Below the pieces are notes generated by a model. The model ran no database searches. It was not told the DNA's origin and worked only from the letters and a program-made list of their open reading frames with translations. Below, in pieces: positions 38,034 to 53,382 of a stretch of DNA of 64,000 nucleotides (the stretch's first letter is position 1; each line of letters starts with the position of its first letter). The translations under genes were made by a program, and so were the position numbers. Origin of the DNA: Candidatus Eiseniibacteriota bacterium (GTDB taxonomy: Bacteria > Eisenbacteria > RBG-16-71-46); NCBI GenBank assembly GCA_963717505.1, contig OY970342.1, forward strand, positions 3,936,001 through 4,000,000, given 5' to 3'.

Positions 38034-39735
38034 TCAGCCGGCCGTAGGTGTGACCGGAACGCCCTCGGCCGGCGGCAACGCGAAGAAGAACGTGCTGCCC
38101 TGGCCCGGCGTGCTCTCGACCCAGATGGTACCGCCGTGCTGCTCGACGATTCCCTTGCAGATGACCAGGCCGAGTCCCGTGCCTCCGGCCTGCCGGGTGA
38201 GCGATGAGTCGATCTGCGAGAACTTGCGGAACAGTTTGCCGAGATCCTGCGCGGCGATGCCCTCGCCGTGGTCGCGGACGGACACGTGCACCGAGGTCTC
38301 CGCAGGCACGACCCGGACCTCGATGCGGCCGTGAGCGGGCGAGAACTTGATGGCGTTCGAGAGCAGGTTGGTCAGCACCTGGCCGATGCGGTCGGAGTCG
38401 ATGACCACGTCGGGCAGCGATGATTCGACGTGCAGGTCCAGCGTCAGCGACTTCTCCTCGAGCAGGGTCGCCATGGACTCGGCCGCCTGCGACAGCACCG
38501 GCTCGAGGCGCTGGCGCTCGAGGTTCAAGCGCAGGGACGCCGACTCGAGCTTGGAGAAGTCGAGAATGTCGGAGATCAGCAGCAGCAGGCGCTCGGTGTT
38601 CGCGTGCGCGATGGTCAGCAGCTTGTGCTGCTGCTCGGTCTGCGGGAAGAAGCGCTCGTCCGCCAGCAGCTCGACCGCGCCCTTGACCGAGGTCAGCGGG
38701 GTGCGGATTTCGTGCGACACCACCGCGACGAACTCGGACTTCAGGCGGTCCAGGCTCTTGGTGTGCTCGTAGAGCTGGGAGTTGCGGACGCTGACCGCGG
38801 TCTGGGCCGCGAACAGCGCGAGGAAGTGCTGGTCGTCGTTGGTGAAGCCGGTCTCGCGGTTGAACACCGCCAGCACGCCGAGCACCCGCCCCTCGGCGAT
38901 CATCGGCACGGCGAGCAGCGAGCGATACCGCAGCCCGGGCAACCCGGCGCTTCGTGGTCGACGCCCGCCTCGGCCGCGATTCGGACGGTTCGGTGGTCGG
39001 TGAGCGCCGGAGCCAGGACGCTGTCCGGCATCACCACGGGCAGCGTCGTGCGGTCGGGCTCGAGCCCGCCGACGCCGTGCCACGCGGCCGCGCGGGACTC
39101 CCCCGACTCATCGTGCGCCAGGTAGACGACGGCCGCCTGCGCGCCGCTCAGCTCGGCGCTGCGCGCGCAGATCATCGACAGGCGCGGCGCCAGCTCGAGG
39201 TTGTAGCCGATCTCCCGACCCAGGTCGTACAGCGCTGCAGCTGCGTGGTCGCCCGACGGACGCGCTCCTTGAGCTCGTGCTCGTGCCGCTCGAGGATCTC
39301 GTTCTTCTCGCGCAGCTCCTCAACCAGCCGCCGGTTCATCTCCTCGAGCCGCCGGTTGGCGATGCCGCGTTCGACGATCTGCTCCACCTCGTCGAGCTCG
39401 AACGGCTTGGTGATGTAGTCGAAGGCGCCCTGGCGCAGCGCGTCGATGGCGGTCGCGGCCGACGCGTGGCCGGTGACCACGATGACCGCCGACTTCGTGT
39501 CCAGATCCTTGGCCACCCGCATGACCTCGAGGCCCGACATGCCCGGCAGGTTGATGTCGGTGAGGATGATGTCGGGACGCAGTTCGGGCAGGAGGCGCAC
39601 GGCGTCGCGCCCGTTGTAGGCGACGGTGACGCGGTGACCGAGCCCGGCCAGCAGCTCCTCGAGGACCGCCGCGACTTCGACCTCGTCGTCGACCACCAGG
39701 ATGCGGGCCGACCCTGTCTCGGAAGCCTGGGCCAT
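38034..39735 (-). CDS. Hybrid sensor: receiver-GAF-histidine kinase (frameshifts)
   Basis: ILVVDDE/LTDINLPG receiver; GAF (LLAVPM); SHEIRTPL, NLLSNAIKF, GTGLGL. Confidence 0.88.
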
Positions 39736-39746
39736 CGCGCGTACCG

Positions 39747-40706
39747 TCAGTGGAGCGCCGAGGGCGCGGCCGCGACCACGCGCCGGCGGCCGCCCTTCTT
39801 CGCGAGCCCGACCGCGCGTTCCGCGGCGCTCAACAGGTCGAGCGGCTCGGTGCCGTCGCCAGGGCTCGCGGCCACCCCCGCGCAGGCGCTGATCCGGCCC
39901 GCACGAGGGAACCGATGCTTCTCGATGGCGCGCTGCACGCGGTCGGCACAGCGCACCGCCGATTCGCGGTCGGTCTCGGGCAACACGATCGCGAAGTCGT
40001 CGCCCCCGAGTCGCGCGACGATGTCGGTCTCGCGCAGCGCGAGCTTCAGCACCAGCGCGACTTCGGCGAGCACAGTGTCTCCCGCCTTGCGCCCATACCG
40101 TTCGTTGATCGCGGCGAAGTGATCGAGGTCGATCACCAGAACGGACACCGGCAGGCCGTGGCGGCGCGCGCGCGCCAGCTCCTCCTGGAGTCGCGCATGG
40201 AACGCCCCGGCGTCGGGCAGCCCGGTGAGCGAATCGCGTCCGGGCATGGTGCGCAGCCGCAAGAGCTCGAGCCGGGCGCCGAGGGCGGCGCCGAGGGCTC
40301 CCGCGGCGGTGCGAATCAGGGTCAGCTGCGAAGGCTGCCAGGCACGGCCCGGACGCGCGATCAGGTCGAGCGTTCCAACGCGCTCCGTCCCCCGCATCAG
40401 CGGCACGCTCAAGCAGCCGCGCAGATCCCCGGCGGCCGTGCGCCAGGCGCCGCGCGCGCACCAGGGTTCGATCGCACCCGAGGGCCCGATCGCGTGCAGG
40501 GCGACGCCGTCGCAGTCGAATGCGCGAATCAGCGACATCAGCGCCCGCTGCAGCGATCGCGGCTCGGCCGCGGGCGAGAGCATCGCCTCGCACGCCGACC
40601 ACAGGAACTGGGACGCGCGCCGGCGGTCGACCGCGGTATCGGGCGTTCCGGCGTCGCTCCTGCGCGTCGCGAGCCCGTCGCCGCCGGTGGGCGGTGCTGC
40701 GGCCAA
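39747..40706 (-). CDS. GAF-like plus GGDEF domain protein (GGDDF, RxxD I-site); start uncertain
   Basis: DSLTGL, DLDHF..IN..YG..AGD, RETDIVARLGGDDF. Confidence 0.85.
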   Translation of the reverse strand: MAAAPPTGGDGLATRRSDAGTPDTAVDRRRASQFLWSACEAMLSPAAEPRSLQRALMSLIRAFDCDGVALHAIGPSGAIEPWCARGAWRTAAGDLRGCLSVPLMRGTERVGTLDLIARPGRAWQPSQLTLIRTAAGALGAALGARLELLRLRTMPGRDSLTGLPDAGAFHARLQEELARARRHGLPVSVLVIDLDHFAAINERYGRKAGDTVLAEVALVLKLALRETDIVARLGGDDFAIVLPETDRESAVRCADRVQRAIEKHRFPRAGRISACAGVAASPGDGTEPLDLLSAAERAVGLAKKGGRRRVVAAAPSALH

Positions 40707-40716
40707 CGACGCCCGG

Positions 40717-41001
40717 CTACGCCGCGCGCGACTCGGAACCGTCGGCGTGGAGCCGCGCTTCGACGACGCGAAGACGCGCCATTGCGTTTTCGATCCGTTG
40801 CGTCTCACCCAGCACCACCTCCAAGCGTGTGCGAAACGCAGGGTCGCTCGCCGCCGAATCGGCCAACAGCAAGCGGATCTGCCCCCGCAAGCCTGCCAAT
40901 GCGTTCAAGACTTCGCTGTGGATGCTGATCGCCGAGGTCGCCGCCCAGGCGGAATCGCCGGCATCGGCGCCGGGGACTCCGACCCGCGACTTCCGCTCCA
41001 C
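40717..41001 (-). CDS. Small protein resembling a stand-alone HisKA (DHp) helix pair
   Basis: IHSEVLNALAGLRGQIRLLL...ETQRIENAMARL; overlaps the fliA tail. Confidence 0.45.
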   Translation of the reverse strand: MERKSRVGVPGADAGDSAWAATSAISIHSEVLNALAGLRGQIRLLLADSAASDPAFRTRLEVVLGETQRIENAMARLRVVEARLHADGSESRAA

Positions 41002-41819
41002 GCGCCGTTGCTGTTCAACGCCTTCTGCAGCCGCAGTCGCAGCCGCGCCATCGCCCGGCTGTGCACCTGCGACACGCGCGACTCCGAGATCCCGAGTGCC
41101 CGTCCGATCTCGTTCAGCGTCATGTGCTCGTAGTAGTAGAGCGCGACCACCAGCCGCTCCTGCTCGGGCAGCTGGTCGAGGGTGCGCAACATGACCCGGC
41201 GACCCTGCTCTTCCTCGAGCCGCGCCTCGACGTCGACCGCGTGCGGATCGGCGAGATGGTCGCCGAGGGTCGACGGCTCCTGGTCGTCGCCGGGGCGGCT
41301 CTCGTCGAGCGACACCAGCACCGCGCCGCGGACGTGGTCGAGCAGCCGGTAGAAGTCGGTGCGCGTCATCTTCAGTTCTCGGGCGACTTCCACCTCGGAG
41401 GCTGCGCGTCCCAGCTTCTGATCGAGCTTGCGGGTTACGCCGTCGAGGTTGCGCGCCTTGCGACGCATGGAGCGCGACACCCAGTCGAGCGCGCGCAGCT
41501 GGTCGAGCACGGCGCCCTTGATCCGCCACACCGCGTAGGTCTCGAACTTGACGCCCTTGCCGGTGTCGAACTTCGCGTGGGCGTCGAGCAGTCCGAGCAC
41601 GCCGGCCGAGTAGAGATCCTCGTGATCCACGTTCTTGGGCAGCGTCGCCGCGACGCGCTCGACCACGTGCCGGACCAGCGGCGCGAACCGGCTCAGCAGC
41701 TCGTCCTTGGAATAGGTCACGGGCACCGACGCCGGCGCGCTGCGATTGGCCGGCTTGCGCACGACTCGAATGGGGGCACGGGACCGGGTGGTGGAGCTGA
41801 CGGGGACGGGGCGTGGCAT
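40905..41819 (-). CDS. fliA: FliA/WhiG-family sigma-28 factor
   Basis: DLYSAGVLGL, KFETYA.WRIKGAVLDQLRALDWVSRS, LYYYEHMTLNEIG..LGISESRVSQVHS. Confidence 0.93.
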   Translation of the reverse strand: MPRPVPVSSTTRSRAPIRVVRKPANRSAPASVPVTYSKDELLSRFAPLVRHVVERVAATLPKNVDHEDLYSAGVLGLLDAHAKFDTGKGVKFETYAVWRIKGAVLDQLRALDWVSRSMRRKARNLDGVTRKLDQKLGRAASEVEVARELKMTRTDFYRLLDHVRGAVLVSLDESRPGDDQEPSTLGDHLADPHAVDVEARLEEEQGRRVMLRTLDQLPEQERLVVALYYYEHMTLNEIGRALGISESRVSQVHSRAMARLRLRLQKALNSNGAWSGSRGSESPAPMPAIPPGRRPRRSASTAKS

Positions 41820-41831
41820 CGTGCCTCCCTG

Positions 41832-42744
41832 CTAGGCCAGGAGCCGGCGGGATTCCACCGGTTCCTGAATCGAGGGCTCAGGCTCGGGTGTCCCCCACAG
41901 CAACGCCGCCATCGCCGGTAGGCGATCGCGGCCGGAGACCGGGGAAACGCCGTGAGCACGGGCTCCTGGCGGCGCACGGCCCGCGGGACGCACGGGTCGT
42001 ACGGCACGGAGCCCAGGAACGGAACGTCGAGCTGCAGGAAGCGGCGCGCGACGAGTCGGATGCGGTGCGCGGTCTCGTCGGCCTCGTCCGGCGCCGAGGC
42101 CATGCTGACCACCAGGTGCGGCGACCGCTTGAGTCCCTGCTGGTGGAGCAGCTTGATCAACGCGTAGGCGTCCGAGAACGCGGGCATCTCGGGGGTGGTC
42201 ACGACCACCACGTCGTCGGCCGCCAGGCACAACGAGACCACCGTCCGACGACGCCGGACGCGAGGTCGAGGAGCACGAGGTCGGCGTCGCCGGCCAGCGC
42301 GCCCAGGGCCCGCAGCACCACCTCGCGCCGGAAGTCGTCGAGCTCGGCCAGCTCGGGAGCACCCGAAGCCGCGGGCACCAGCGTCACGCCGCGCCCGGCC
42401 GGCAGCACGATCTCCTCGATGCTGCGCTCGCCGTTCAGCACGTGCTGCAGGTCGTAGCGCGGGTGGACGCCGAGCAGCAGGTCCAGGTTGGCTTGCGCGA
42501 AATCGGCGTCGACCAGCAGGACGCGCGCTCCCTGCTGACCGAGCGCCACCGCGAGATTGGCGGCCAGGTGGCTCTTGCCGACGCCGCCCTTGCCGCTCGC
42601 GAACGCGATGGTCGGCACACGTGGGCGCCGCCAGCTGGCCGGATGCAGGGCCGGTTCGCTCTCGGTGGCGCCCTCGGCGCCGAGCACGACCCGCAGGGCG
42701 TCGGATCCGGCGTTCGCAGTGTTGCGGCCGCGGTGGCGCTTCAT
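41832..42744 (-). CDS. flhG: FlhG/FleN (MinD-like) ATPase (frameshifts)
   Basis: ASGKGGVGKS, DADFAQANLDLLLG, PAASG, VTTPE.PAFSDAYALIK, GSVPYD. Confidence 0.88.
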
Positions 42745-42983
42745 CGGCCCCACCGGGTGTCGCCCTCGTGCTCGGCCATCGTGTGCAGAGCGCCGACGAA
42801 CTCCCAGTACCGACGCTGCTCGCGGCACGACGCGAGCGGCCACTCGAGGCCGATCCGCGCGAGGCGCCGCTCTTCGTGTCGCAGGGTCTCGACCGCCGCC
42901 TGGATCGCGTAGCCGCGCTCGCCGGCGGTGGCGGGAATGACGCGCGACAGCTCGGCGCACGGGGTCAGCGCAGGACGCGTCAC
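42741..42983 (-). CDS. Hypothetical 80-aa protein
   Basis: Start and stop overlap both neighbours (4-nt coupling). Confidence 0.6.
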   Translation of the reverse strand: MTRPALTPCAELSRVIPATAGERGYAIQAAVETLRHEERRLARIGLEWPLASCREQRRYWEFVGALHTMAEHEGDTRWGR

Positions 42984-43261
42984 GACGCCTTCCGCAAACG
43001 CAGCGAGACGCGCGGCGCAACCTGAGCGCGCGGGCGCGCGGCCAACTTCAGCCTGGCGATCAAGGCCTGGTAGGAGCGCTCGAAGCGACGGACCGACATC
43101 CCCATCGCCACCGCCGCCTCGGCCTGGGTCAGGCGCTCGATCAGCACCAACGCCAGCATCGTGCGCTCGTCGGCGGTGTAGTGCTCCAGAGTCTCGGCTA
43201 CCGGACTCGGGCCGGTCGCGGCGCGGCCGCCCTGGATCACACGCAGTCGCGGGCGCTTCAC
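42980..43261 (-). CDS. Small sigma region-4-like HTH protein
   Basis: GTG overlaps upstream stop; ERTMLALVLIERLTQAEAAVAMGMS resembles sigma region 4; LRVIQGG motif. Confidence 0.62.
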   Translation of the reverse strand: MKRPRLRVIQGGRAATGPSPVAETLEHYTADERTMLALVLIERLTQAEAAVAMGMSVRRFERSYQALIARLKLAARPRAQVAPRVSLRLRKAS

Positions 43262-43659
43262 GCCGCTCTCCGGGGACGAGAACGCATCTCGTCGGCGCGG
43301 TTCTGGCCGATTGCCCGGTACGCGGACTGGCGCAGCTGCTCGATTCGGAACGGTTTGGTGAAGCACTCGACGATCCCGACCCGCGCCAGCTCGGCCGGCG
43401 TTCCGGGAGTCGGATCGGCGGTGAGCAGAATCACCGGCTGCCGCCGGTCGCCGCGCTGCAGCTTGCGCGCCAGCTCGACGCCGCTCATTCCGGGCAGCCT
43501 GAGGTCGGCGATCACCAGATCGCTGTCGTGGTCCTCGAGCCAGGACCATGCATCCTCGGCGCTGCGGAAGACGTCGATGGTGAACCCGTCGTCGTTGAGC
43601 CCTTCGGAGAGGGCCCATGAAACGGTCGGTTCATCGTCGACGATCAGAATGTGCGGCAT
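43258..43659 (-). CDS. Single-domain response regulator
   Basis: ILIVDDE, IADLRLPG, ILLTA, TKPF. Confidence 0.9.
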   Translation of the reverse strand: MPHILIVDDEPTVSWALSEGLNDDGFTIDVFRSAEDAWSWLEDHDSDLVIADLRLPGMSGVELARKLQRGDRRQPVILLTADPTPGTPAELARVGIVECFTKPFRIEQLRQSAYRAIGQNRADEMRSRPRRAA

Positions 43660-43698: not shown

Positions 43699-43714
43699 TG
43701 CAGTCTGCGTGCCA
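43699..43714 (-). promoter_or_regulatory. sigma54 (-24/-12) promoter TGGCACGCAGACTGCA
   Basis: TGGCAC-N5-CTGCA with GG-N10-GC spacing, 40 nt upstream of the receiver-flhG-fliA operon. Confidence 0.8.
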
Positions 43715-43985
43715 GACCGTGCGCACGTGCGAAGTCGTGGCCGTATGACCCACGGTCGCCGCCCACGAGTGGCCGCGTAGGTGGCTGGCGGGCCGGGTCA
43801 TAGCTTTGGACGGGCGGAAGTTACGGTCGGCGGTGAGACCTGGTTCGAGGCCCGTGCGATGGGTCCCGCGAGGGGTCTCGGCAATGCACAATCGATCCGG
43901 TCGGGTGCAATCCGCCCGCCCAACCTCGTTGCGTCCGGGTCCGGCGACGAATGATTACTGGTCGCCCGGGATGCGAACTGCGCGG

Positions 43986-45421
43986 CTAGGTTTCGTCGTC
44001 GCCGGACTCGTCCGCCCCCTCGTCCAGCGCGAACTCCTTGAGCTTGGTGCGCAGGGTCTGTCGGGAGATGCCGAGCAGCCCGGCGGCCCGGGTCTTGTTG
44101 CCGCCACAGACCTCGAGCGCGTGCTCGATCGCCATGCTGCTCGATCTCGGCCAGCGGCCGGACCGACCCTCGGGGAATACCTCGCCGCGCGACGCGGATG
44201 GGCCGGGACGCTTCCGGCCGGTGATCTCGGCCGGCAGGTGCTCGAGGCGGATCTCGTCGTCGGCCCTGCCAGCTCGAGCAGCACGACGCGCTCGATCACG
44301 TTCTTGAGCTCGCGCACGTTGCCGGGCCACGCGTATTCAGACAGGGCGGCGAGGGCACCGGGGGCGAGGCGCGCCGGCGGCCGTCCGAGCTCGCCGCAGA
44401 AGCGCGCGATGAAGTGCTCGGACCAGCTCGGCCACGTCTCCGGCTCGCTCGCGCAGCGGCGGCATCTCGATCGGCACCACGTTGAGCCGGAAGTAGAGGT
44501 CCTCGCGGAACCGGCCCTCGTCGACCAGCTTCCGGAGGTCGCGATGGGTGGCCGCCACCACCCGCACGTCGACGCGTGATGTCGACGCTGCCGCCGACGC
44601 GGCGGAACGTCCGCGATTCTCGAGCACGCGCAGCAGCTTGGCCTGGAGCTGCGGCGCCATCTCCCCGATCTCGTCGAGGAACAGCGTGCCGCGGTCGGCC
44701 AGCTCGAACAGCCCCTTGCGGAAGCGCTTGGCGTCGGTGAACGCGCCCTTCTCGTGGCCGTAGAGCTCGCTCTCGAGCAGCTGCTCGGGGATCGCGCTGC
44801 AGTTGAGGTCGATGAACGGTCCGGCCGCGCGCGCACTGCGATCGTGGAGGTAGCGCGCCATGAGCTCCTTGCCGACGCCGGTCTCGCCCTGGATCAGCAC
44901 GGTCGCGGTTTCGCTGCGCGCCGCGCGCTCGAGCCGCTGGAGCACGTCGCTTGAGCGCGGCGCTCTCGCCGATCAGCGTGCCGCCGCCACCGGCGCGCCA
45001 GTGCTCGACCTCGCGCTGGAGCCGCGCGTGCTCGAGGGCGGTGGTGACCACCGCCCCGAGCTGGTCGAGGTCGGGCGGCTTGAGCATGAAGTCGTAGGCG
45101 CCGAGCCGGGTCGCCTCGCACCGCGTGCTCGACGGTGCCGTGCCCGGTGAGCATGATCACCGGCAGCGTCGGGTCCTCCTCGCGCAGCGCGCGCAGGACC
45201 TGCATGCCGTCCTCGTCCCCGAGCTTCAGGTCGAGCAGCACCACGTCGACCGATCGCTCGCGCACCTGCGCCAGCGCCTCGCGCCGCCCGGTCGCCTCGA
45301 GCGGGGTGAACCCGAGGTCGCGCGCCCACTCGCCGATGCTGAATCGCAGCGAGCGCTCGTCGTCAACGACGAGGAGTGTGTGCGCGGCCTCGGTCGCTGC
45401 GGGAATCGCGTCTTTCGCCAT
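43986..45421 (-). CDS. NtrC-family sigma54 enhancer-binding response regulator (frameshifts)
   Basis: Receiver; [41 protein letters not shown]; Fis-type HTH. Confidence 0.92.
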
Positions 45422-46580
45422 GACGTTTCTCCACGGGGAAGTTGAGCAGCACGGTGGTGCCGCGACCTTCGCGGCTCGCGATCTCGATCGTGCCGCCGTG
45501 CTCCTGCATGATGGTCTGAGAGATCGCAAGCCCGAGGCCGGTGCCGCGTGCGGGCTTGGTCGAGAAGAACGGGTCGAACAGCTTGGATCGGCAGCGCCGC
45601 GCGGAATCCCGACTCCGGTGTCGATCACGCGCATCTGCTGGTATTCGATCCATCCGGGATCCCCGGCGCGCGCGCCTCGCACGGCGTCCGAAGCCCGCCG
45701 GCCCGGCCCGCGGTTCGGGCGGCGTCGCCGCGCGCGGCGCACCTCGTAGCGCAGGGTTCCCCCCTCGGGCATCGCCTGGATCGCATTGAGCGGTCACGTT
45801 GAGCAGCACCTGGGTCACGAGATCGCGATCGACGTGCACGGCCGGAAGCGCGCGGGGCGCGTCGACCTCGACCGCGATCCCGGCGTCGGCGACGGTCTCG
45901 GCGGTCAGCTCGCGCACCCGCTCGAGGCAGCTGGCCGAGCTCATGCGGGTGCCAGCTCGGGCGTGCGCGGGCGCGCGTACTGGAGCAGGCTGGTCACGAT
46001 GTCGGTCGAGCCGCGCCACCTCGTCGAGGATCACCCGGACGAAGCGCGCGCGTTCGTCGCGCGGCTCGAAGCGTCGCAGCAGCACCTGGGCGCTGGTGCC
46101 GATGCCGGCGAGCGGATTGCGGATCTCGTGCGCGACCCCGGCCGACAGCTGTCCGAGGGTCGCCAGGCGCTCGTGCCGGCGCAGCTCCTGCTGCATGCGG
46201 CGCTGCTGGGTCAGGTCGCGGAGCAGAAGCAACACCCAGGGCGGCCGGCCGATCCTTCGGCTCCGGATCAGGACCGGCGTCCCCGCGCCATCGGGGCGGA
46301 GCAGAACGGTCTCACGCTCGGTGCGCGCGGCGGCCCGCGCCTCCCGCACCGGATCGTCGCCGGGCACGACGGTGCGCACGAAGCTCGACCCGGGCTCGCC
46401 GAGCGCTTGGCGCGGGCGCAGCCCCAGCAGGTGCTGGGCCGCGTCGTTGACGGATCGGACGCGGCCGCGGGGATCGAGGACCAGGACCCCCGCCTCCGAG
46501 GTGCGCATGAGGATGCGGAGCGCCGACTCGAAGGGGAAGCCGGTTCGGGATCGACTCGCCGCAACGCTCGCAGGCGCCAT
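45363..46580 (-). CDS. Cytoplasmic PAS histidine kinase (frameshifts)
   Basis: PAS; AHEIRNPL; FDPFFSTK; GTGLGL; no TM. Confidence 0.9.
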   Translation of the reverse strand: MAPASVAASRSRTGFPFESALRILMRTSEAGVLVLDPRGRVRSVNDAAQHLLGLRPRQALGEPGSSFVRTVVPGDDPVREARAAARTERETVLLRPDGAGTPVLIRSRRIGRPPWVLLLLRDLTQQRRMQQELRRHERLATLGQLSAGVAHEIRNPLAGIGTSAQVLLRRFEPRDERARFVRVILDEVARLDRHRDQPAPVRAPAHARAGTRMSSASCLERVRELTAETVADAGIAVEVDAPRALPAVHVDRDLVTQVLLNVTAQCDPGDARGGNPALRGAPRAATPPEPRAGPAGFGRRARRARRGSRMDRIPADARDRHRSRDSARRCRSKLFDPFFSTKPARGTGLGLAISQTIMQEHGGTIEIASREGRGTTVLLNFPVEKRHGERRDSRSDRGRAHTPRR

Positions 46581-46679: not shown

Positions 46680-46895
46680 TCAGTTGTGCTTGAGTTCTTC
46701 GATCACCGCCGCGACCAGCAAATCGCGAACCTCTTCCCGATCGTAGTGCCTTTCGGCGATACGGGTTTGGGCGACAGCCACCTTGGACCACCGAATCGCG
46801 GCCTCGACCGCTTCAGGTCGACTCGCCACTCTTCGGACGCGGGTCTTCACTCGGCGGTCCCTGCTGGCGACGGTTTTCTTCTTGGATCCGCGCAT
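46680..46895 (-). CDS. FlgM-like anti-sigma-28 factor (start may be GTG at 46850 or 46829)
   Basis: [35 protein letters not shown] fits the FlgM C-terminal R..KV....RI...Y pattern; downstream of a sigma28 promoter. Confidence 0.6.
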
Positions 46896-47037
46896 AGATC
46901 TCTTCGCGATGGACCTTGACCTCAGGCGGCGCTTCGATGCCAAGCTTTACCTGGCCCGAACGGACTTCGAGGACGGTGATCTTCACAGAATCACCAATCC
47001 TGATGTTCTCGCCTAACTTCCGTGTTAGGACCAGCAT
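46813..47037 (-). CDS. csrA: Carbon storage regulator CsrA
   Basis: MLVLTRK.GE.I.IG...[21 protein letters not shown]. Confidence 0.96.
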
Positions 47038-47088: not shown

Positions 47089-47115
47089 GTATCGGCCCTG
47101 GTTTCAAACGGCTTA
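47089..47115 (-). promoter_or_regulatory. sigma28 promoter TAAG-N15-GCCGATAC upstream of csrA
   Basis: Matches TAAA-N15-GCCGATAA consensus with exact spacing. Confidence 0.8.
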
Positions 47116-47154
47116 AGTGGACAATACCCGGAACTTAGACGGCCTTCAAAGACC

Positions 47155-47182
47155 TTGACTCCAGGGGGTCGTCGGCTAGCCT
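47155..47182 (+). promoter_or_regulatory. sigma70-type promoter TTGACT-N16-TAGCCT
   Basis: Consensus match upstream of the PP2C gene. Confidence 0.5.
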
Positions 47183-47213: not shown

Positions 47214-49682
47214 ATGTACCGCACCACCTCACTGCTTTCCTGGCTGTTGCTGCCCCTGGCCGCTTTTCTGGTCGCGAGCGCCCTGGGGCTGTCCCAGCAC
47301 CCCTATGTCGGGGCCGTACTGCGCGGGCCGGCCGTGGTCGCCGTCGACCCGGGCAGCCCGGCCGACCGTGCGGGGATCCGGGCGGGCGACCGCGTCCGGG
47401 CGTCGGCTTCGCCCCAGGCGGGAACGGCGGCCCGCCCCCTGGCGGACGCCACGATCGGACGACCGCTGACGCTCGAGATCGATCGTCAGGGCGAGTCGCG
47501 GACGGCGTGGCTGGTGCCCGATCGGCTGCCGGACGGCGATCGACGTCTGATCGGCGCGTTGCTGCTGGTGGCGTCGGGGTTCGTCTTGCTCGGCGGCTGG
47601 GTGTGGAGTGAACGTCGCGACCCTCTGACGCGCGCCTTCTTCCTCCTGTGTCTGGGGTTCGCGTTCCTGCTGGCGCCCCTGCCCCACGCGACCGGGCGCG
47701 CCGCGCACCTCATTCACGAAGCGGTGCTGACCGGCGTCACCGTCTTCCTGCCCGCCTGGTTCGTTCATTTCTTCGCACTGTTCCCCGACCGCAGTGCCCG
47801 CGGTGGGCGACGCGCGCTGGTCCAGGGCAGCTACCTGATCGCCACGGCACTGCTCGTGATCTCGCTCGCCCCGCTGGTCCTGACCTCGACCGGCCACGGC
47901 GCGATCGTGAACCCGATCGATCCCCTGCTCCAGGCGGTGGCCGCGTTGTGGTTCGCCGCCGGAGTCGTGATCGCCATCGCCCTGTTCGCCGCCGCCCTGC
48001 TCCAGGCTGAATCGAACGACGCGCGGCGCCGTCTGCGCGTCGCCTTTGCTGGAACGGTGCTCGGAGCGGCTCCGCTCGCGGCGTTGATCGTCGTCCGCAA
48101 CGTGGCGCCGGAAGTGTCGATTCCGGGGGAGCGTTTCGCCTTGTTGCTCGTGCTGTTCGTGCCGGCGTCGTTCGCGTGGGCGACCGTGATCCACCAGGTG
48201 TTCGACACGCGCGGAGCGCTGCGGATCGGCCTGGTCGCTGCGTTCCTCGGGCTGGTCGGCGCCGCGCTCTACGCGGCCGGTGAGTGGCTGGCGCTCGCCT
48301 GGTGGCCCAATCTGGGGAGCGGCATCGCCGGCGGGGCACTGGCGATGCTGGCGCTCGGAGCGTGCATCGCGGGACCGCTCGCGCCGCGACTCAGGATGTT
48401 CGGAAGCCGCGTCGTCCCCGAGCCCGGAACGCCATCGCTCACGACCTGGCTTGCGCGCGAGCCCGGCCTGCGCGACCTGCCCATGGAGCGGATCCTGCGC
48501 GAAGCCTGCGAGGTGGTCGCACGCTCCCTGCGTCTCGATGGCTGCGCGGTCGTGGTCTACGACGGCTTGCTCCCCTTCGGAACCACCGGGCACGGCACGC
48601 TGTCGGGAAACGGCTGGCCGGTCCCCGATCGATCGGCGTTTCGGGGGCAGGGCGTGCTGGCGCTCGAGGATGCTTCGCTTCCGACCGGCGATCGCGACCG
48701 CTTGGACCTGGCCGGAGTGCAATGGCTCGTGCCGATCGGTGAGAACCCGACTCGGGGCGTCATGGTGATCGGGCGGCGGCTCGCGGGATCGTGGCTCGGG
48801 CGAAGTGAGCAAGCCGAGCTCGAGAGTTTCTCGGCGCATCTCGCGATCGCGCTCGAGAACGAAGCGCTGCGGCGCGAGGCTTCGGCGCGCGGCCACCTGG
48901 ACCGCGAGCTGGCCGAGGCCGGCGCCATCCAGGCGCATCTGCTCCCTCGGCACGCGCCGGTGTTCCCGACGCTCGATTGCGCCGCCGCGGCACTCGCCAG
49001 CGAAACGGTGGGCGGCGACTACTACGATTTCATCCCGGGTCCCGGACGCGACTTCACGCTCGCGGTCGGCGACGCCGCGGGGAAAGGCGTGCCGGCAGCA
49101 CTGGTGTTGGCCGGAGTCCAGGCCCGGTTTCGCAGCCAGGCGGGGCGCGGACTCACGCCCGGGCGGCTGCTCGCCGAGCTCAATCAGGAACTGGTGGGTT
49201 TGGACCAGCCCGAGAAGTTCGTTGGACTGTTGTGCGCGCGTGTCGAAGTCCGCAGCGCGCGCATTTGTTTTGCCAACGCCGGGCTGACCCCGCCGCTGAT
49301 CCGCCGGCGAACGGGAGTGTTCGAGGAGTTCACCGCCGGCGGCATGCTGCTCGGCGTGCGCGCGCCCTCGACCTATCCCGAAACCTGGGTCGAGCTGGAT
49401 GCCGGCGACCTGGTGGTCATCTACTCCGACGGTCTGACCGAGGCCCGGCGCGGCGAGGAGATGTTCGGGGTCGAGGGGATCCAGCGAGTGCTCGAGGAGC
49501 ATCGGGAGCGCCGGGCAGCCGACATCCTCGAGGCCCTGCTCTCCGAGGTCCGGGCCTGGACCGATCAGCCCCTGGACGACGTGACCGTCGTGGTTCTGCG
49601 TCAGCTGACCCGGGCAGGCCGCCCCGGGGGTCCGCAAAACGCACTCAAGCGGACTCCGGTCACCGCCGATGCAATGGGGTGA
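47214..49682 (+). CDS. Membrane PDZ/TM/GAF/SpoIIE (PP2C, RsbU-like) phosphatase
   Basis: PDZ (PGSPADRAGI..GD); about 8 TM; VGGDYYDF, VGDAAGKG, YSDGLTE, DDVT. Confidence 0.9.
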   Translation: MYRTTSLLSWLLLPLAAFLVASALGLSQHPYVGAVLRGPAVVAVDPGSPADRAGIRAGDRVRASASPQAGTAARPLADATIGRPLTLEIDRQGESRTAWLVPDRLPDGDRRLIGALLLVASGFVLLGGWVWSERRDPLTRAFFLLCLGFAFLLAPLPHATGRAAHLIHEAVLTGVTVFLPAWFVHFFALFPDRSARGGRRALVQGSYLIATALLVISLAPLVLTSTGHGAIVNPIDPLLQAVAALWFAAGVVIAIALFAAALLQAESNDARRRLRVAFAGTVLGAAPLAALIVVRNVAPEVSIPGERFALLLVLFVPASFAWATVIHQVFDTRGALRIGLVAAFLGLVGAALYAAGEWLALAWWPNLGSGIAGGALAMLALGACIAGPLAPRLRMFGSRVVPEPGTPSLTTWLAREPGLRDLPMERILREACEVVARSLRLDGCAVVVYDGLLPFGTTGHGTLSGNGWPVPDRSAFRGQGVLALEDASLPTGDRDRLDLAGVQWLVPIGENPTRGVMVIGRRLAGSWLGRSEQAELESFSAHLAIALENEALRREASARGHLDRELAEAGAIQAHLLPRHAPVFPTLDCAAAALASETVGGDYYDFIPGPGRDFTLAVGDAAGKGVPAALVLAGVQARFRSQAGRGLTPGRLLAELNQELVGLDQPEKFVGLLCARVEVRSARICFANAGLTPPLIRRRTGVFEEFTAGGMLLGVRAPSTYPETWVELDAGDLVVIYSDGLTEARRGEEMFGVEGIQRVLEEHRERRAADILEALLSEVRAWTDQPLDDVTVVVLRQLTRAGRPGGPQNALKRTPVTADAMG
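49645..49672 (+). promoter_or_regulatory. sigma28 promoter TCAAG-N15-GCCGATGC
   Basis: Exact spacing; lies at the 3' end of the PP2C gene, facing the intergenic region. Confidence 0.7.
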
Positions 49683-51285: not shown

Positions 51286-51314
51286 ACGGTACGCCCGAGC
51301 CTTTGGAGTGTCAA
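51286..51314 (-). promoter_or_regulatory. sigma70 promoter TTGACA-N17-TACCGT (near-leaderless)
   Basis: Perfect -35; -10 lies 9 nt before ATG. Confidence 0.7.
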
Positions 51315-51369
51315 CCACCACGTCACACAAGCCTGACAGTCGTCGCGGAGAACGACTCCGCAGGCACCA

Positions 51370-52486
51370 TCACTCTTCGGAGATGACGATGCGCACGATG
51401 ATCTCGCGCGTCGTGCCCCGAGGAATCGTGATGGGAATGACGGCCTCGGTCGCCCCGCCGCCTCCGGAGACCTCGACGGTCGCCTGCCTCAGGCCGGGGC
51501 GTTCGGCGGTCAGCTCGGGCGCGGGTGCGGCGCGACGCGCCTCGGGCTGGGGCTGGGGTTGGGGCTTCGGGCGCGCCATCGCGATCTCGGCGGCAACCGG
51601 CGCCGGCCGTTTCGCGGCGGGGGCCACGTTGCGAGTCTCGGGTTTCTGGAGCTGAACCGGCTCCGACTCGAGCTCGGCGACCGCCTCGCCCAGCCCCGGC
51701 AGGGCGACTTCGTTGCCGAAGTCGGCCGGCAGCGCCGGCGGACGGGGTCGTGCGGGGTTCGCCTGAGGTGTCTCGAGCATCGGACGCTTTGCGGCGGGTT
51801 CGGCCGCACGAGCGGCGGGAGCTGCGGGCGCCGCCGGCTCTTCGGCGGCCGCCTCGGCCTTGGGACGCGACGCCGGGCTGAACGCGGTGCGCTTGAGGTC
51901 GCGGGTCACCTTCTCCATCAGCAGGTGCGACACGCCGCGGAAGGTCTCGAACACGCCCTTGCCTTGACGTCGCCACCGCCTCGAAGAACGGCACCGTCGC
52001 CGGTCGGGTTCAGCTCGGCGTTCAGCTCTTCGACGGTGTAGACGTTGGGCAGATCGCGCTTGTTGTACTGGATCACCCAGGGAATCTCGTCGAGCTGCAG
52101 CCCGTACTCGGCGAGGTTGGTGCGCAGGTTCGGCGAGACTCTCCTTGTTCTCGTCCATCTTGCCGACTTCGCTGTCGGCCACGAACACGATCGCATCCGC
52201 GCCCTTGAGCACCAGCTTGCGCGTGGCGTTGTAGAACACCTGGCCCGGGCACGGTGTAGAGCAGGAAGCGGGTCTTGAAGCCCATGATCTCGCCGAGGTC
52301 GAGCGGCAGCAGGTCGAAGAACAGCGTCCGGTCGGACTGCGTCTTCATGCTGACCATCTTGCCGCGGCTGGTGTCGGGCACCGCCTCGTAGATGGCCTCG
52401 AGGTTGGTGGTCTTACCGCTCAGGCCGGCCCCGTAATAGACCAGCTTGGCGTTGATTTCTTTGCCCGAGTAGCTCACGACGACCAC
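51370..52486 (-). CDS. mglA: MglA-family small GTPase with Ala/Pro-rich C-terminal extension (frameshifts)
   Basis: [57 protein letters not shown]. Confidence 0.9.
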
Positions 52487-52725
52487 GGTCCATTCCTCCT
52501 TGAGCGACCCCACCCTGTCGCAGAGGTGGATCCCATGGAGCCCCTTGCCGCCCTTTCTCCAATGGGCCTCGCGGGTGCTTGAACGACCTACTGCGATGCC
52601 TAAGCAAGGAGCCGCCGTCCTCGCACCGGATGGGGTCGCGATTCCCGGTCCGCGGCGATGACGCCGCGACTAGACCGGAATCGCGCCACTCCGTTGACTG
52701 TGAGATCCCGCGGACTTCGAACCCG

Positions 52726-52753
52726 GTATCGGCCGGCGATCCGAGGGGCTTGA
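52726..52753 (-). promoter_or_regulatory. sigma28 promoter TCAAG-N15-GCCGATAC upstream of mglA
   Basis: Exact spacing; directly downstream of a terminator. Confidence 0.8.
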
Positions 52754-52758
52754 ACCCG

Positions 52759-52785
52759 AAAAACGCCGCCGCTGCGGCGGTTCGC
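52759..52785 (-). terminator. Intrinsic terminator after the hypothetical gene
   Basis: CCGCC/GGCGG stem plus TTTTT on the minus strand. Confidence 0.55.
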
Positions 52786-52798
52786 CTCGCGTCGGACT

Positions 52799-53220
52799 TC
52801 ATGCGACCTCGACCAGGGACTCGACGCGATGGATCCAGATGCCCGGCCGCTCGCGCACCTGCGCCCGAATCGCCTCGCCCCGGTCGCGATAGTGCGAGAG
52901 GAAGATCTCCTTCAGCCGCTCGCAGTCGCTCGGTCGGAAAGTAGCGACAGGCCCGGGTGAACATCTCGTCGCGACCGGAGTAGACGAACGCGGTGACCTC
53001 GGTGACCCGGTCGTACTGGGTCTCGCCGTAGGCGGCCTCCGGGGAGTCCTCCATGTCGAGCCACAGCGAGGCGCGCGGTATCGAGCACTTCGAAGCCGTG
53101 CTTGCGGGTCATCAGGTACTCCCACAGACCGAAGATCTCGAGCGGCACGAAGCGTGGCGTCGTCTCGCGCTCGGCCAGGCCCGGGCGAATGACGCAGCGC
53201 ACCAGCTTCTGGCTGGGCAT
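52799..53220 (-). CDS. Hypothetical protein of about 140 aa (frameshifts)
   Basis: GGAGG SD; MPSQKLVRCVIRPG...WEYLM...SLWLDMED...RYFP...PGIWIHRV stitched across frames. Confidence 0.65.
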
Positions 53221-53328
53221 ATTGGAACCCTCCAGGCGGGAGTGTCGGCACCGGTGCGCCCCGATGGGCGCGGCCAAGTCGAGCGAGCGACTCGCCAGCA
53301 AAGGGCCGGTTCAGCGACTCCCCCACCG

Positions 53329-53356
53329 GTGTCGGCAACCGCGGGCGGCGTCTCGA
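53329..53356 (-). promoter_or_regulatory. sigma28-like promoter TCGAG-N15-GCCGACAC
   Basis: Exact spacing; one mismatch per box versus the mglA site. Confidence 0.55.
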
Positions 53357-53366
53357 TGGAAATTCA

Positions 53367-53382
53367 TGCAGTTTGCACGCCG
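53367..53382 (-). promoter_or_regulatory. Putative sigma54 promoter CGGCGTGCAAACTGCA
   Basis: GG-N10-GC spacing; same CTGCA -12 as the 43699 site. Confidence 0.5.

What the first reader, a model, noticed from the sequence alone, without database searches (positions are those of the whole stretch)
38034..53382. Flagellar-type sigma54/sigma28 cascade with no flagellum genes, apparently rewired to other targets
Seen: one co-oriented block of csrA, a FlgM-like ORF, PAS kinase, NtrC activator, sigma54 promoter, receiver, two small ORFs, flhG, fliA, a DHp-like ORF, a GGDEF protein and a hybrid kinase. No flhF, flhA, fliC, fliW, mot or che gene is present. Known: flhG-fliA normally follows flhA-flhF, and the FleSR/FlrBC-sigma54-FliA/FlgM hierarchy controls polar flagella. 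Inference: the regulatory skeleton was kept after flagellar loss or relocation and now runs another programme (surface motility, polarity or development), as WhiG does in Streptomyces.
Basis: partly seen in the sequence, partly recalled or inferred. Interest (0 to 1): 0.88.

Follow-up and report, generated by a model that had tools for sequence, protein, structure and literature searches.

The report
Flagellar sigma cascade without a flagellum
An uncultured soil bacterium (Candidatus Eisenbacteria) that has no flagellum genes has kept the flagellar regulators, and they appear to switch on about fifty other genes, among them a cell-polarity GTPase and pilin-like genes.

Summary
On the minus strand (47061 down to 38034) lie csrA, a FlgM-like ORF, a PAS kinase, an NtrC-type activator, a sigma54 promoter, a receiver, two small ORFs, flhG, fliA, a DHp ORF, GAF-GGDEF and a REC-GAF kinase. 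The single-contig genome holds no FlhA, flagellin, rod, FliW or CheW.

The block is conserved across Candidatus Eisenbacteria. FliA was found in 187 of 201 genomes, FlhA in 66. The window's FliA is the ortholog of the FliA inside flhA-flhF-flhG-fliA clusters of flagellated relatives. One family keeps fliN-fliO relics beside flhG-fliA.

FliA looks active. TCAAG-N15-GCCGAWA occurs 17 times in this genome and 0 times in a reversed control, mostly just upstream of genes. Targets include csrA/flgM, an MglA-family GTPase at 51373-52513, pilin-like genes, HEAT-repeat proteins and envelope genes. These sites are conserved in relatives.

Frame breaks in the NtrC, flhG and kinase genes are probably assembly noise: 15 of 128 genes tested genome-wide show them.

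This is a new variant of a known kind. Legionella longbeachae and L. oakridgensis keep FliA, FleN, FleRS and FlgM without flagella. The scan noted the receiver/sigma-4/hairpin operon before, in another genome (e1-1384589).

The parts
52727..52753 (-). sigma28-type promoter TCAAG-N15-GCCGATA in front of the MglA-family gene
   Evidence: PWM 24.3 bits. The orthologous position carries a site of 16 bits or more in 27 of 30 same-family loci, about 190-245 nt upstream.
51373..52513 (-). MglA-family small GTPase with a Pro/Ala-rich tail; broken into two frames in this assembly
   Evidence: The N-terminal piece is 93% identical over 90 aa to the intact 354-aa ortholog L209. L209 matches Thermus and Myxococcus MglA chains at E 6e-72 to 4e-70. 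One search reports 3 TGA stops inside the window copy.
47214..49682 (+). PDZ-GAF-SpoIIE (PP2C) phosphatase, divergent from csrA
   Evidence: Pfam SpoIIE 143.8 bits. It holds the same position in relatives. Any role in the cascade was not tested.
47090..47116 (-). sigma28-type promoter TTAAG-N15-GCCGATA in front of csrA
   Evidence: PWM 22.0 bits. A PWM site of 14 bits or more lies upstream of csrA in 46 of 49 relatives' loci.
46813..47037 (-). csrA
   Evidence: Pfam CsrA 91.1 bits; NCBIfam csrA 96.8 bits against a cut-off of 73.
46683..46853 (-). FlgM-like small ORF (start uncertain)
   Evidence: Conserved C-terminal motif RV..A..RI.(S)GYYDR..VR..L..AVL.EL. 16 of 36 orthologs hit Pfam FlgM at E<=1, best 3.4e-5; the window copy itself does not. 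Complex model with FliA scores 0.69 against a best control of 0.00.
45363..46580 (-). PAS-HisKA-HATPase sensor kinase
   Evidence: Pfam. 58.6% identical over 411 aa to the L010 ortholog, in one frame.
43986..45421 (-). NtrC-type sigma54 activator (REC, AAA+ with GAFTDA, lid, HTH_8), frame-broken in this assembly
   Evidence: The domains lie in different frames. tblastn pieces fall in three frames. About 8 frame changes by reading the three frames. It is intact at about 477 aa in L010.
43699..43714 (-). sigma54 promoter TGGCAC-N5-CTGCA about 40 nt before the receiver gene
   Evidence: A site with 9 or more of 11 consensus positions lies at the same place in 64 of 68 relatives' loci.
43258..43659 (-). 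single-domain receiver
   Evidence: Pfam Response_reg 89.3 bits. 63% identical to the L010 ortholog.
43034..43264 (-). stand-alone sigma-factor region-4-like domain (first small ORF)
   Evidence: Weak sigma70 region-4 hits. The L010 ortholog is 48% identical over 31 aa to FliA residues 214-244. The recognition-helix part is not conserved.
42714..42977 (-). second small conserved ORF of unknown family
   Evidence: 45% identical over 88 aa to the L010 ortholog. No Pfam or NCBIfam hit.
41915..42696 (-). FlhG/FleN-type MinD-like ATPase, one frame break near 42248
   Evidence: Pfam CbiA, AAA_31 and ParA in two frames. 68-71% identical to the L010 ortholog. Orthologs follow flhF in flagellated relatives.
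40905..41819 (-). FliA/WhiG-family sigma factor, the only one in the genome
   Evidence: TIGR02479 243.7 bits against a cut-off of 189.6; one match over the cut-off in the genome. 86% identical to the L010 ortholog.
40717..41070 (-). stand-alone DHp (HisKA-like) ORF; H-box HHEINNALVGVRG in the relatives' orthologs; the window copy was not printed
   Evidence: tblastn. Pfam HisKA 31.5 bits for the L010 ortholog. 54 orthologs found; H-box read in the first 12 printed, all from relatives.
39747..40682 (-). GAF-GGDEF diguanylate cyclase
   Evidence: Pfam GGDEF 130 bits. 62% identical over 317 aa to the L010 ortholog.
38034..39972 (-). REC-GAF-HisKA-HATPase kinase, two frame breaks
   Evidence: Pfam domains in separate ORFs. 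tblastn pieces in three frames. Intact at 643 aa in L010.

Best explanation
This is a conserved regulatory locus of Candidatus Eisenbacteria. It descends from the regulatory end of the phylum's flagellar gene cluster and outlived the loss of the flagellum. The reading has two operons.

Operon 1. Tandem sigma70-like and sigma28-type promoters drive csrA, a FlgM-like anti-sigma and probably the PAS kinase and NtrC-type activator.

Operon 2. A sigma54 promoter, presumably fired by that activator, drives a receiver, a sigma-4-like domain, a small ORF, FlhG and FliA, and probably the DHp ORF, the GAF-GGDEF cyclase and the REC-GAF kinase.

FliA, held in check by the FlgM-like protein, then reads promoters of the form TCAAG-N15-GCCGAWA. 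There are about 30-50 of these in this genome. They stand before csrA/flgM (feedback), an MglA-family GTPase 10 kb away in the same window, pilin-like genes, HEAT-repeat proteins, envelope proteins and further sensor kinases.

The most likely output is a surface, polarity and envelope programme with c-di-GMP signalling, not swimming.

Shown: the gene content, the absence of flagellar genes, the orthology with flagellar-cluster FliA, and the enrichment, spacing, placement and conservation of the motifs.

Inferred: that FliA reads the motif, that the activator fires the sigma54 promoter, the operon boundaries, and the physiological output.
For: Anatomy of the block.

No flagellar genes in the genome.

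Phylum sample: FliA over its cut-off in 187 of 201 genomes (117 of 121 high-quality ones). FlhA over its cut-off in 66 of 201, and at E<=0.001 in 49 of 121 high-quality ones.

Synteny: in six families the orthologous FlhG-FliA...GGDEF-kinase follows flhA-flhF. Family f7 has fliN (62 bits) and fliO relics next to flhG-fliA.

Tree: one FliA clade (SH-aLRT 95) mixes activator-linked, flhA-linked and relic contexts along taxonomy. For example, within f12 an activator-linked row is sister to an flhA-linked row at 99.

Promoters of flagellated relatives: 5 of the 6 main flagellin genes inspected (L153-L158) carry TAAAG-N14/15 followed by a GCCGAWA-like -10 (GCCGAAA in two of them, more degenerate in three).

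Motif in this genome:
- TCAAG-N15-GCCGAWA occurs 17 times against 0 in the reversed control. Nine other spacings give 0-2.
- PWM of 18 bits or more: 53 hits against 1.
- Of 27 hits at 22 bits or more, 25 lie outside genes and 21 lie within 260 nt upstream of a same-strand gene. Random positions give 88 of 400 and 23 of 400.

Motif in the phylum: 118 of 121 genomes carry it. By my addition of the table, the 45 same-family genomes hold 479 matches against 6 control matches.

Conserved target sites:
- csrA, 46 of 49 loci.
- MglA-family gene, 27 of 30 same-family loci.
- Pilin-like gene, 13 of 27 loci against 2 of 108 control segments.
- 8 of 30 exact-motif loci of two relatives have downstream genes homologous to targets here.

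sigma54: promoter conserved in 64 of 68 loci; rpoN is present.

FlgM-like ORF. The complex model supports binding at sigma region 4: score 0.69, best of 3 controls 0.00. That mark was reached by 116 of 157 solved complexes and 2 of 215 mismatched pairs. The runs agree in at least 54% of their contacts and the partner's pLDDT is at least 64. A FliA-FlgM complex has been solved (recalled), so this shows likeness.
Against: No expression or binding data exist; every link is read from sequence.

In this assembly the activator (about 8 frame changes), flhG (1) and the last kinase (2) are broken. If these breaks are real, the upper tier is dead in this strain.

The PWM was built from this genome's own hits, so counts made with it are partly circular. 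The exact-pattern counts and the other genomes are not.

The -35 element (TCAAG) differs at two positions from the textbook TAAA.

The window's own FlgM-like copy hits no Pfam model.

The target list is heterogeneous and most top targets have no known family, so 'polarity/surface programme' rests on a few named genes.

The pilin-like site is seen in only about half of the relatives. None of the 30 exact-motif loci of G001 and G008 lay before a homolog of the two pilin-like targets.
Confidence: 0.75

Rival explanations
1. Decaying remnant. In this particular lineage the cascade is being lost. The NtrC-type activator, flhG and the REC-GAF kinase are true pseudogenes, and only fliA and a few neighbours are still intact by chance.
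For: The activator has about 8 frame changes in 1.4 kb, far above the genome-wide mean of 0.21 per kb. flhG has 1 and the kinase 2. No public run holds this stretch, so the reads could not be consulted.
Against: Frame changes are genome-wide: 15 of 128 genes with an ortholog of 50% identity or more in a relative, 27 changes in all. They also cluster elsewhere, for example 7 in two neighbouring genes near 4.007 Mb. rpoN, a glycosyltransferase and the MglA-family gene are split too. Within the aligned frames, identity to L010 is like that of the intact neighbours: 59-73% against 54-86%. The block is intact in the relatives read in full. The motif regulon is as rich here (17 exact sites) as in relatives.
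Confidence: 0.12
2. The TCAAG-N15-GCCGAWA motif is read by another sigma factor or is a non-promoter element. On this view FliA has few or no targets left.
For: The -35 half departs from TAAA. The genome has other sigma-70-family genes (10 weak FliA_WhiG matches). Nothing was measured.
Against: The GCCGAWA -10 half at a fixed 15-nt spacing is the textbook sigma28 pattern (recalled). It also stands before flagellin genes of flagellated relatives whose only FliA is the ortholog. It stands before csrA/flgM next to fliA itself. Only one FliA-family gene passes the cut-off in the genome. The sites are oriented and placed as promoters.
Confidence: 0.08
3. Ordinary split locus. A full flagellar gene set lies elsewhere in the genome and this block simply regulates it.
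For: Same-family relatives with flagella do carry a separate, complete cluster elsewhere, with its own flhG and fliA. Marker completeness of this genome is only 86.68%.
Against: The genome is a single 4.16 Mb contig. Six-frame HMM searches for FHIPEP, Flagellin_N and Flg_bb_rod find nothing. Of 22 proteins of the same-family cluster, 19 find nothing by tblastn, and none of 7 from the other cluster type does. Frame-broken copies would still be seen, as they are in other long-read genomes (G032, G182).
Confidence: 0.02

Closest known systems
Legionella longbeachae and L. oakridgensis: flagellar regulators kept after loss of the flagellum
   Same: L. longbeachae carries no flagellar biosynthesis genes except FliA, FleN, FleR/FleS and FlgD (PMC2824747, passages read). 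L. oakridgensis keeps only functional FliA and FlgM. Its flgM is sigma28-dependent and its FlgM seems to be degraded, not exported (PMC5655016, passages read). The surviving set here is the same: sigma28, a FleN/FlhG ATPase, a kinase plus sigma54 activator, and an anti-sigma under a sigma28 promoter.
   Different: Here the state is found across a whole candidate phylum, not single species. At least 68 of 121 high-quality genomes have FliA without FlhA. The genes form one compact block, with csrA, a sigma-4-like domain, a DHp ORF, a GGDEF cyclase and a hybrid kinase. The predicted regulon is larger and includes an MglA-family GTPase.
FlrBC/FleSR - sigma54 - FlhFG - FliA/FlgM hierarchy of polar flagellates (Vibrio, Pseudomonas; recalled)
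   Same: A PAS kinase and an NtrC-type activator, a sigma54 promoter ahead of flhG-fliA, a FlgM-like anti-sigma, and sigma28 promoters at late genes.
   Different: There are no flhF, flhA or structural genes. NCBIfam models for FlbD and FlgR score far below their cut-offs (218.7 and 210.6 against 750), so orthology of the activator with FleR/FlrC is not shown.
Bdellovibrio FliA as attack-phase master regulator
   Same: A flagellar sigma factor whose regulon has expanded to pilin (Tad/flp) and many non-flagellar genes (PMC5430801, passages read).
   Different: Bdellovibrio is flagellated and its FliA still drives flagellins.
Streptomyces WhiG with the c-di-GMP-armed anti-sigma RsiG (recalled)
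   Same: A FliA/WhiG-family sigma in a non-flagellated organism runs a developmental programme and is linked to c-di-GMP. NCBIfam's WhiG equivalog is the top-scoring model here (250.7 bits, below its cut-off of 343).
   Different: The RsiG c-di-GMP motif (recalled as E-x3-S-x2-R-x3-Q-x3-D) is in 0 of 54 orthologs of the DHp ORF that follows fliA. The anti-sigma here is FlgM-like.
PhyR-NepR-sigmaEcfG partner switch
   Same: A receiver and a sigma-like decoy domain are encoded beside a sigma factor.
   Different: The receiver and the sigma-4-like domain are separate proteins, only region 4 is mimicked, and the sigma is sigma28. No binding test was run.
CsrA-FliW-flagellin circuit of Bacillus (recalled)
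   Same: csrA sits in a sigma28 context. Flagellin leaders of flagellated Eisenbacteria carry a GGA hairpin and a GGA-containing ribosome-binding site.
   Different: This genome has no FliW and no flagellin.

Membership tests
FliA/WhiG sigma-28 family (TIGR02479) | Profile score above the curated cut-off; sigma70 regions 2, 3 and 4 present | tested here: met
   243.7 bits against 189.6. Pfam Sigma70_r2, r3 and r4 all hit.
FliA/WhiG sigma-28 family (TIGR02479) | Reads TAAA-N15-GCCGATAA-type promoters | tested here: inconclusive
   A TCAAG-N15-GCCGAWA motif is enriched, strictly spaced and placed as a promoter. That FliA reads it is inferred, not measured.
FliA/WhiG sigma-28 family (TIGR02479) | Controls late flagellar genes | tested here: not met
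   No such genes exist in this genome. Orthologs in flagellated relatives sit in flagellar clusters, and 5 of the 6 main flagellin genes inspected carry the promoter type.
FlgM anti-sigma-28 (PF04316) | Profile match to the C-terminal sigma-binding region | tested here: inconclusive
   16 of 36 orthologs match at E<=1 (best 3.4e-5). The window copy and 19 others do not. A profile of the family finds no FlgM chain in the PDB.
FlgM anti-sigma-28 (PF04316) | Binds sigma28 | tested here: inconclusive
   The complex model supports binding but does not show it. Score 0.69, best of 3 controls 0.00. That mark was reached by 116 of 157 solved complexes and 2 of 215 mismatched pairs. The runs agree in at least 54% of their contacts and the partner's pLDDT is at least 64. 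The interface lies on FliA residues 206-264. The score may reflect likeness to a solved complex.
FlhG/FleN (MinD-type flagellar number regulator) | MinD/ParA-type P-loop ATPase encoded directly before fliA | tested here: met
   Pfam CbiA, AAA_31 and ParA. Position and orthology to the flhF-adjacent gene of flagellated relatives, 43-54% identity. No FlhG-specific model exists in the libraries used. minD models score below their cut-offs.
FlhG/FleN (MinD-type flagellar number regulator) | Partner FlhF present | tested here: not met
   FlhF of relatives finds only an SRP-type GTPase at 33% identity, or nothing.
FleS/FleR (FlrB/FlrC) two-component pair | PAS kinase next to a REC-AAA+-HTH sigma54 activator with a GAFTGA-type loop; rpoN present; sigma54 promoter at a target | tested here: met
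   Domains. GAFTDA read in the translation. rpoN 283.4 bits summed. Promoter at 43714, conserved in 64 of 68 loci.
FleS/FleR (FlrB/FlrC) two-component pair | Orthology with the flagellar activators | tested here: inconclusive
   FlbD 218.7 bits and FlgR 210.6 bits against cut-offs of 750. NifA, RtcR and NorR models score higher. Only the AAA+ piece was scanned.
CsrA | Profile score above the cut-off | tested here: met
   NCBIfam 96.8 bits against 73; Pfam 91.1 against 27.
CsrA-FliW module | FliW partner present | tested here: not met
   No PF02623 match in the genome.
MglA small GTPase | Close sequence match to solved MglA chains over the whole G domain | tested here: met
   Ortholog L209 matches 3t12_A at E 6.3e-72 over residues 12-201. 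The window copy is 93% identical to L209 over 90 aa but is frame-broken. A second MglA copy lies next to the genome's only Roadblock (MglB-type) gene elsewhere.
RsiG-type c-di-GMP anti-sigma of WhiG | E-x3-S-x2-R-x3-Q-x3-D motif (recalled) | tested here: not met
   0 of 54 orthologs of the DHp ORF carry it.

The most novel reading that the evidence does not exclude
In Eisenbacteria the flagellar checkpoint has been replaced by a partner switch. On this reading the stand-alone sigma28 region-4 mimic is made from the sigma54 promoter when the PAS kinase and NtrC-type activator fire. It acts as a decoy that draws the FlgM-like anti-sigma off FliA, so that signalling rather than export through a hook-basal body frees sigma28. 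Freed FliA then runs a phylum-wide polarity and surface programme (MglA-family GTPase, pilin-like genes, envelope proteins, c-di-GMP) that predates and outlived the flagellum. The evidence so far: the decoy shares 48% identity over 31 aa with the part of FliA that the complex model places against the FlgM-like protein. Its DNA-reading helix is not conserved.
Probability: 0.2. Interest if true: 0.8.

Novelty: new variant of a known kind. Interest (0 to 1): 0.62.

Why it matters
Flagella are lost often, and what becomes of their regulators is known from only a few species (Legionella, Chlamydia, Streptomyces). Here a whole uncultured soil phylum shows the process at every stage:
- genomes with the regulators inside a flagellar cluster;
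- genomes with a second, separate flagellar cluster;
- genomes with relics;
- many genomes with none.

In all of these the sigma28 gene, its anti-sigma and a recognisable promoter motif persist. That gives a sequence-defined regulon for organisms that cannot be grown. It links sigma28 to an MglA-family polarity GTPase, a link I did not find in print. It also poses a testable question: how is a FlgM-type anti-sigma relieved when there is no export apparatus?

Tried and rejected
1. The textbook pattern TAAA-N14-17-GCCGATAA gave 15 hits against 32 in the reversed control, so no enrichment. The working motif came only from the alignment of csrA upstream regions.
2. The flagellar/chemotaxis contig G152:C70 has 56% G+C against 74.5% for that genome's block contig, and a gammaproteobacterial gene order. 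I treated it as contamination and used it only as an outgroup and as a source of Mot/Che queries.
3. The RsiG-type motif in the DHp ORF: 0 of 54.
4. A profile of the FlgM-like family against PDB sequences gave only chance hits to a helicase.
5. The 175-aa ORF after the MglA-family gene has no family; only weak OmpA hits at E 0.16.
6. Sequencing runs: no run holds more than 0.12 of the sampled words of 43900-45500.
7. Two sigma54 scans had an index slip in my script: the whole-window part, and (0 of 75). They were redone correctly.
8. Sequence around the frame breaks shows no obvious long homopolymers, so that test is uninformative.
9. The careful tree search did not finish. The tree cited is the quick one, with SH-aLRT support only and several long branches.
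10. Earlier-findings look-ups by place (near) and by words returned nothing.

Full report
WHAT IS THERE

The window is 70% G+C, so raw ORF lists are crowded with false frames. I used Pfam on 110 ORFs, NCBIfam and tblastn with the intact genes of a relative. On the minus strand, from 47061 down to 38034, these give the following order:
- csrA
- a small ORF
- a PAS-HisKA-HATPase kinase
- a REC / sigma54-AAA+ / HTH_8 activator
- a sigma54 promoter
- a receiver
- two small conserved ORFs
- a MinD/ParA-type ATPase
- a FliA/WhiG sigma factor
- a stand-alone DHp ORF
- a GAF-GGDEF cyclase
- a REC-GAF-HisKA-HATPase kinase

The sigma factor scores 243.7 bits against a cut-off of 189.6 and is the only one in the genome over the cut-off. 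The sigma54 site TGGCACGCAGACTGCA at 43714-43699 matches 10 of 11 consensus positions. It is the best of four sites with 9 or more in the window.

WHOSE GENOME, AND IS THE FLAGELLUM REALLY ABSENT

The window lies in a single 4.16 Mb contig. The FliA protein finds 104 relatives in public genomes, and the 80 kept are 61-90% identical. Most of these records are titled Candidatus Eisenbacteria.

Six-frame profile searches of the whole genome find no FHIPEP, Flagellin_N, Flg_bb_rod, FliW or CheW.

I also searched the genome by tblastn:
- 22 flagellar-cluster proteins of a same-family relative. Only FliA and FlhG hit (both to this block), and FlhF hit an SRP-type GTPase at 33% identity. The other 19 found nothing.
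- 7 proteins of the other cluster type. None found anything.
- 6 further queries. MotA, CheW and the f7 FliN and FliO found nothing. MotB matched over an OmpA-like part only (31% over 128 residues) and CheA over a kinase ATPase part only (26% over 136 residues).

Marker completeness is given as 86.68%. I attribute this to frame errors (see below).

FRAME BREAKS

The activator's domains lie in different frames. Its homology falls into three frames, and reading the three frames side by side I count about eight changes. flhG has one and the last kinase two.

To see whether this is special to the block, I took 265 genes of a relative's 420 kb and searched this genome. Of 128 genes with an ortholog of 50% identity or more, 15 show at least one frame change. 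There are 27 changes in about 128 kb, and they cluster elsewhere too. rpoN, a glycosyltransferase and the MglA-family gene are also split.

I read the breaks as assembly noise. No public run holds this stretch, so this could not be proved.

THE BLOCK IS CONSERVED AND DESCENDS FROM A FLAGELLAR CLUSTER

In relative L010 every gene of the block is intact and in the same order, between trpA/SpoIIE and an epimerase.

In a sample of 201 genomes of the phylum:
- FlhA passes its cut-off in 66. Among 121 high-quality genomes, 49 have a match.
- FliA passes in 187, and in 117 of the 121 high-quality genomes.

So at least 68 high-quality genomes have FliA without FlhA. The FliA tally and the pattern tally in the regulon section include one unpublished genome, G015. 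Without it they read 186 of 200 and 117 of 120.

I fetched 40 loci and labelled their genes by BLAST against Pfam-annotated references. Four contexts appear:
- Type A (families f3, f5, f6, f10, f12, f13). The order is fliLMNOPQR-flhB-flhA-flhF-FlhG-small ORF-FliA-...-HDOD-GGDEF-REC-GAF kinase. FliA tallies are listed for six of these genomes, one per family, and each shows a single FliA match.
- Type B (f1, f4, f8, f14, f16). A complete separate cluster, flgDE-fliLMNOPQR-flhBAF-flhG-fliA-flgFGAHIJNK, is present. In four of these genomes (G071, G070, G140, G182) the kinase-activator-...-FliA-GGDEF-kinase block was fetched as well. In G090 and G062 a partial form was fetched. For the eight others only the flagellar cluster was fetched; six of them show two FliA matches and two show one (G039, G195).
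- Family f7. There is no FlhA, but fliN (62 bits) and fliO lie directly before flhG-fliA, with fliPQR-flhBAF missing.
- Many genomes like this one, with the block only.

A quick maximum-likelihood tree of 53 FliA sequences puts the 15 type B sigmas in one clade (SH-aLRT 99). All block-type sigmas fall in another clade (95). Inside that clade, activator-linked, flhA-linked and relic contexts interleave along taxonomy. The careful search did not finish and several branches are long.

My reading: the window's FliA is the vertically inherited sigma28 of the phylum, and its flagellar neighbours have been lost or replaced repeatedly.

A SIGMA28-TYPE REGULON WITHOUT FLAGELLAR GENES

Five of the six main flagellin genes of five type A genomes (L153-L158) carry TAAAG-N14/15 followed by a GCCGAWA-like -10: GCCGAAA in two, more degenerate in three. 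All six carry a GGA hairpin in the leader.

The textbook pattern is not enriched in this genome. An alignment of the csrA upstream regions of 50 loci shows two elements in most: a sigma70-like TTGGAC-N17-TATTCT, followed by T(C/T)AAG-N15-GCCGATAC. A PWM site of 14 bits or more is present in 46 of 49 loci.

In this genome:
- TCAAG-N15-GCCGAWA occurs 17 times against 0 in the reversed sequence. Nine other spacings give 0-2.
- A weight matrix gives 53 hits of 18 bits or more against 1.
- Of 27 hits at 22 bits or more, 25 lie outside genes and 21 lie within 260 nt upstream of a same-strand gene. Random positions give 22% and 6%.

Across the phylum, the exact pattern is found in 118 of 121 genomes, and the tool's backward control is mostly zero. 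By my addition of the table, the 45 same-family genomes hold 479 matches against 6. Genomes with and without FlhA are alike in this.

WHAT THE TARGETS ARE

I scanned the genes behind 33 promoters with Pfam. Named targets include:
- two operons of prepilin-type proteins, one with a PilX/GspK-like gene
- three HEAT-repeat proteins
- an M23/Csd3-type peptidase
- two outer-membrane barrels
- a PEGA protein, LptE, CreD and MreBCD
- a family-2 glycosyltransferase and a sugar nucleotidyltransferase
- three sensor kinases, one of them followed by an ECF sigma gene
- many proteins of no family

The site inside the window (52753-52727) stands before a gene whose intact ortholog matches MglA structures at E 6e-72. 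A site of 16 bits or more stands at the same distance in 27 of 30 same-family loci, and sigma28-like sites stand before the gene in two flagellated genomes of other families.

A pilin-like target has the site in 13 of 27 loci, against 2 of 108 control segments. Of 30 exact-motif loci in two relatives, 8 have downstream genes homologous to targets here, but none to the pilin-like genes.

The genome has five PilT-family ATPases, one Roadblock (MglB-type) gene next to a second MglA copy, and rpoN.

THE SMALL ORFS

The ORF after csrA has a conserved C-terminal motif. 16 of 36 orthologs hit Pfam FlgM (best E 3.4e-5), though not the window copy.

A complex model of it with FliA supports binding but does not show it:
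- The score is 0.69 and the best of 3 controls is 0.00.
- That mark was reached by 116 of 157 solved complexes and 2 of 215 mismatched pairs.
- The runs agree in at least 54% of their contacts, and the partner's pLDDT is at least 64.
- The contacts lie on FliA residues 206-264, that is region 4.
- A FliA-FlgM complex has been solved (recalled), so the pass shows likeness.

The first small ORF after the receiver is a stand-alone region-4-like domain. It is 48% identical over 31 aa to FliA 214-244, and its recognition helix is not conserved.

That note prompted my decoy idea, which I could not test.

The DHp ORF's orthologs in the relatives carry a kinase H-box; the window's own copy was not printed. 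None of the 54 orthologs has the RsiG motif.

The sigma54 promoter before the receiver is present in 64 of 68 loci.

COMPARISON WITH WHAT IS KNOWN

- Legionella longbeachae lacks all flagellar biosynthesis genes except FliA, FleN, FleR/FleS and FlgD (PMC2824747, passages).
- L. oakridgensis keeps functional FliA and FlgM only (PMC5655016, passages).
- Bdellovibrio FliA controls Tad pilin genes and most attack-phase genes (PMC5430801, passages).

The kind of thing is therefore known.

What is new here is the phylum-wide scale, the visible stages of loss, the compact block with csrA, a sigma-4 mimic and c-di-GMP enzymes, and the link to an MglA-family GTPase.

Literature searches:
- 'sigma-28' with 'MglA' and 'type IV pili' found no paper.
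- 'FliA' with 'MglA' found 27 papers. I saw the listing of 10. One (Bdellovibrio) I read in passages; by title and abstract start none of the other nine is about such a link, and eight of them do not concern MglA as a polarity GTPase.
- 'Eisenbacteria' with 'flagella' or 'sigma factor' found nothing on this locus (listings only, except passages of PMC13443453 on CsrA).

VERDICT

This is a new variant of a known kind. It is of moderate to high interest because it gives a sequence-defined, testable regulon and an open mechanistic question in an uncultured phylum.

Noticed in passing
L093 (G152:C70:1-20000): A 23 kb contig of a same-family MAG carries fliMNOPQR-flhBAFG-fliA-cheY...cheA-cheB-motAB-parA-cheW-DUF2802, the gene order of gammaproteobacterial polar flagella. 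It has 56% G+C against 74.5% for that genome's block contig. It is probably a binning contaminant, and it inflates that genome's FlhA and FliA counts.
   Followed up: partly
L153-L158 (flagellin genes of G076, G026, G006, G144, G044): All six flagellin leaders carry a conserved hairpin with GGA in the loop (GGGTATGGAAACCC in two, related variants in the others) and a GGA-containing ribosome-binding site. This looks like a pair of CsrA-binding sites as on Bacillus hag mRNA (recalled).
   Followed up: no
window 49641-49676 (+): A third sigma28-type site (21.3 bits, TCAAG-N15-GCCGATG) lies at the 3' end of the SpoIIE-type gene. It faces the convergent trpA / MglA-family operon. It could be an antisense or small-RNA promoter, or chance.
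   Followed up: no
window about 47117-47160 (-) and relatives' csrA upstream regions: A sigma70-like promoter (TTGGAC-N17-TATTCT in most relatives; TTTGAA-N18-TATTGT in the window, read by eye) lies directly upstream of the sigma28-type promoter of csrA. csrA would then have tandem promoters.
   Followed up: partly
L097 7826-8484 and L112 (family f7): fliN and fliO remain as the only flagellar structural genes, directly before flhG-fliA, in genomes with no FlhA. They are either relics or genes re-used with FlhG.
   Followed up: partly
G000:C1:2184907-2186003: The genome's only Roadblock (MglB-type) gene (27.3 bits) lies just upstream of a second MglA-family match on the same strand. That match is 44% identical to the window-type ortholog L209; its length and C-terminus were not examined. 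The window copy has a Pro/Ala-rich tail and no MglB beside it.
   Followed up: partly
G000:C1:321317-321352 (+): A weaker site (17.4 bits, TCCAG-N15-GCCGAAA) stands just before one of five PilT-family ATPase genes (321370-322383).
   Followed up: no
window 53951-56387 (+): A glycosyltransferase has its GT4 N-domain and its GT1 C-domain in two different overlapping frames. This is another frame break of this assembly.
   Followed up: no
G000:C1:4006945-4009300: Two neighbouring genes outside the window carry 7 frame changes in 2.4 kb, so the assembly's indel errors are clustered.
   Followed up: partly
G026:C4, G144:C8, G006:C18: In three flagellated (type A) genomes the MglA-family gene with the tail lies 15-30 kb from the flagellin genes on the same contig. 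This hints at an old association with the flagellar neighbourhood.
   Followed up: no
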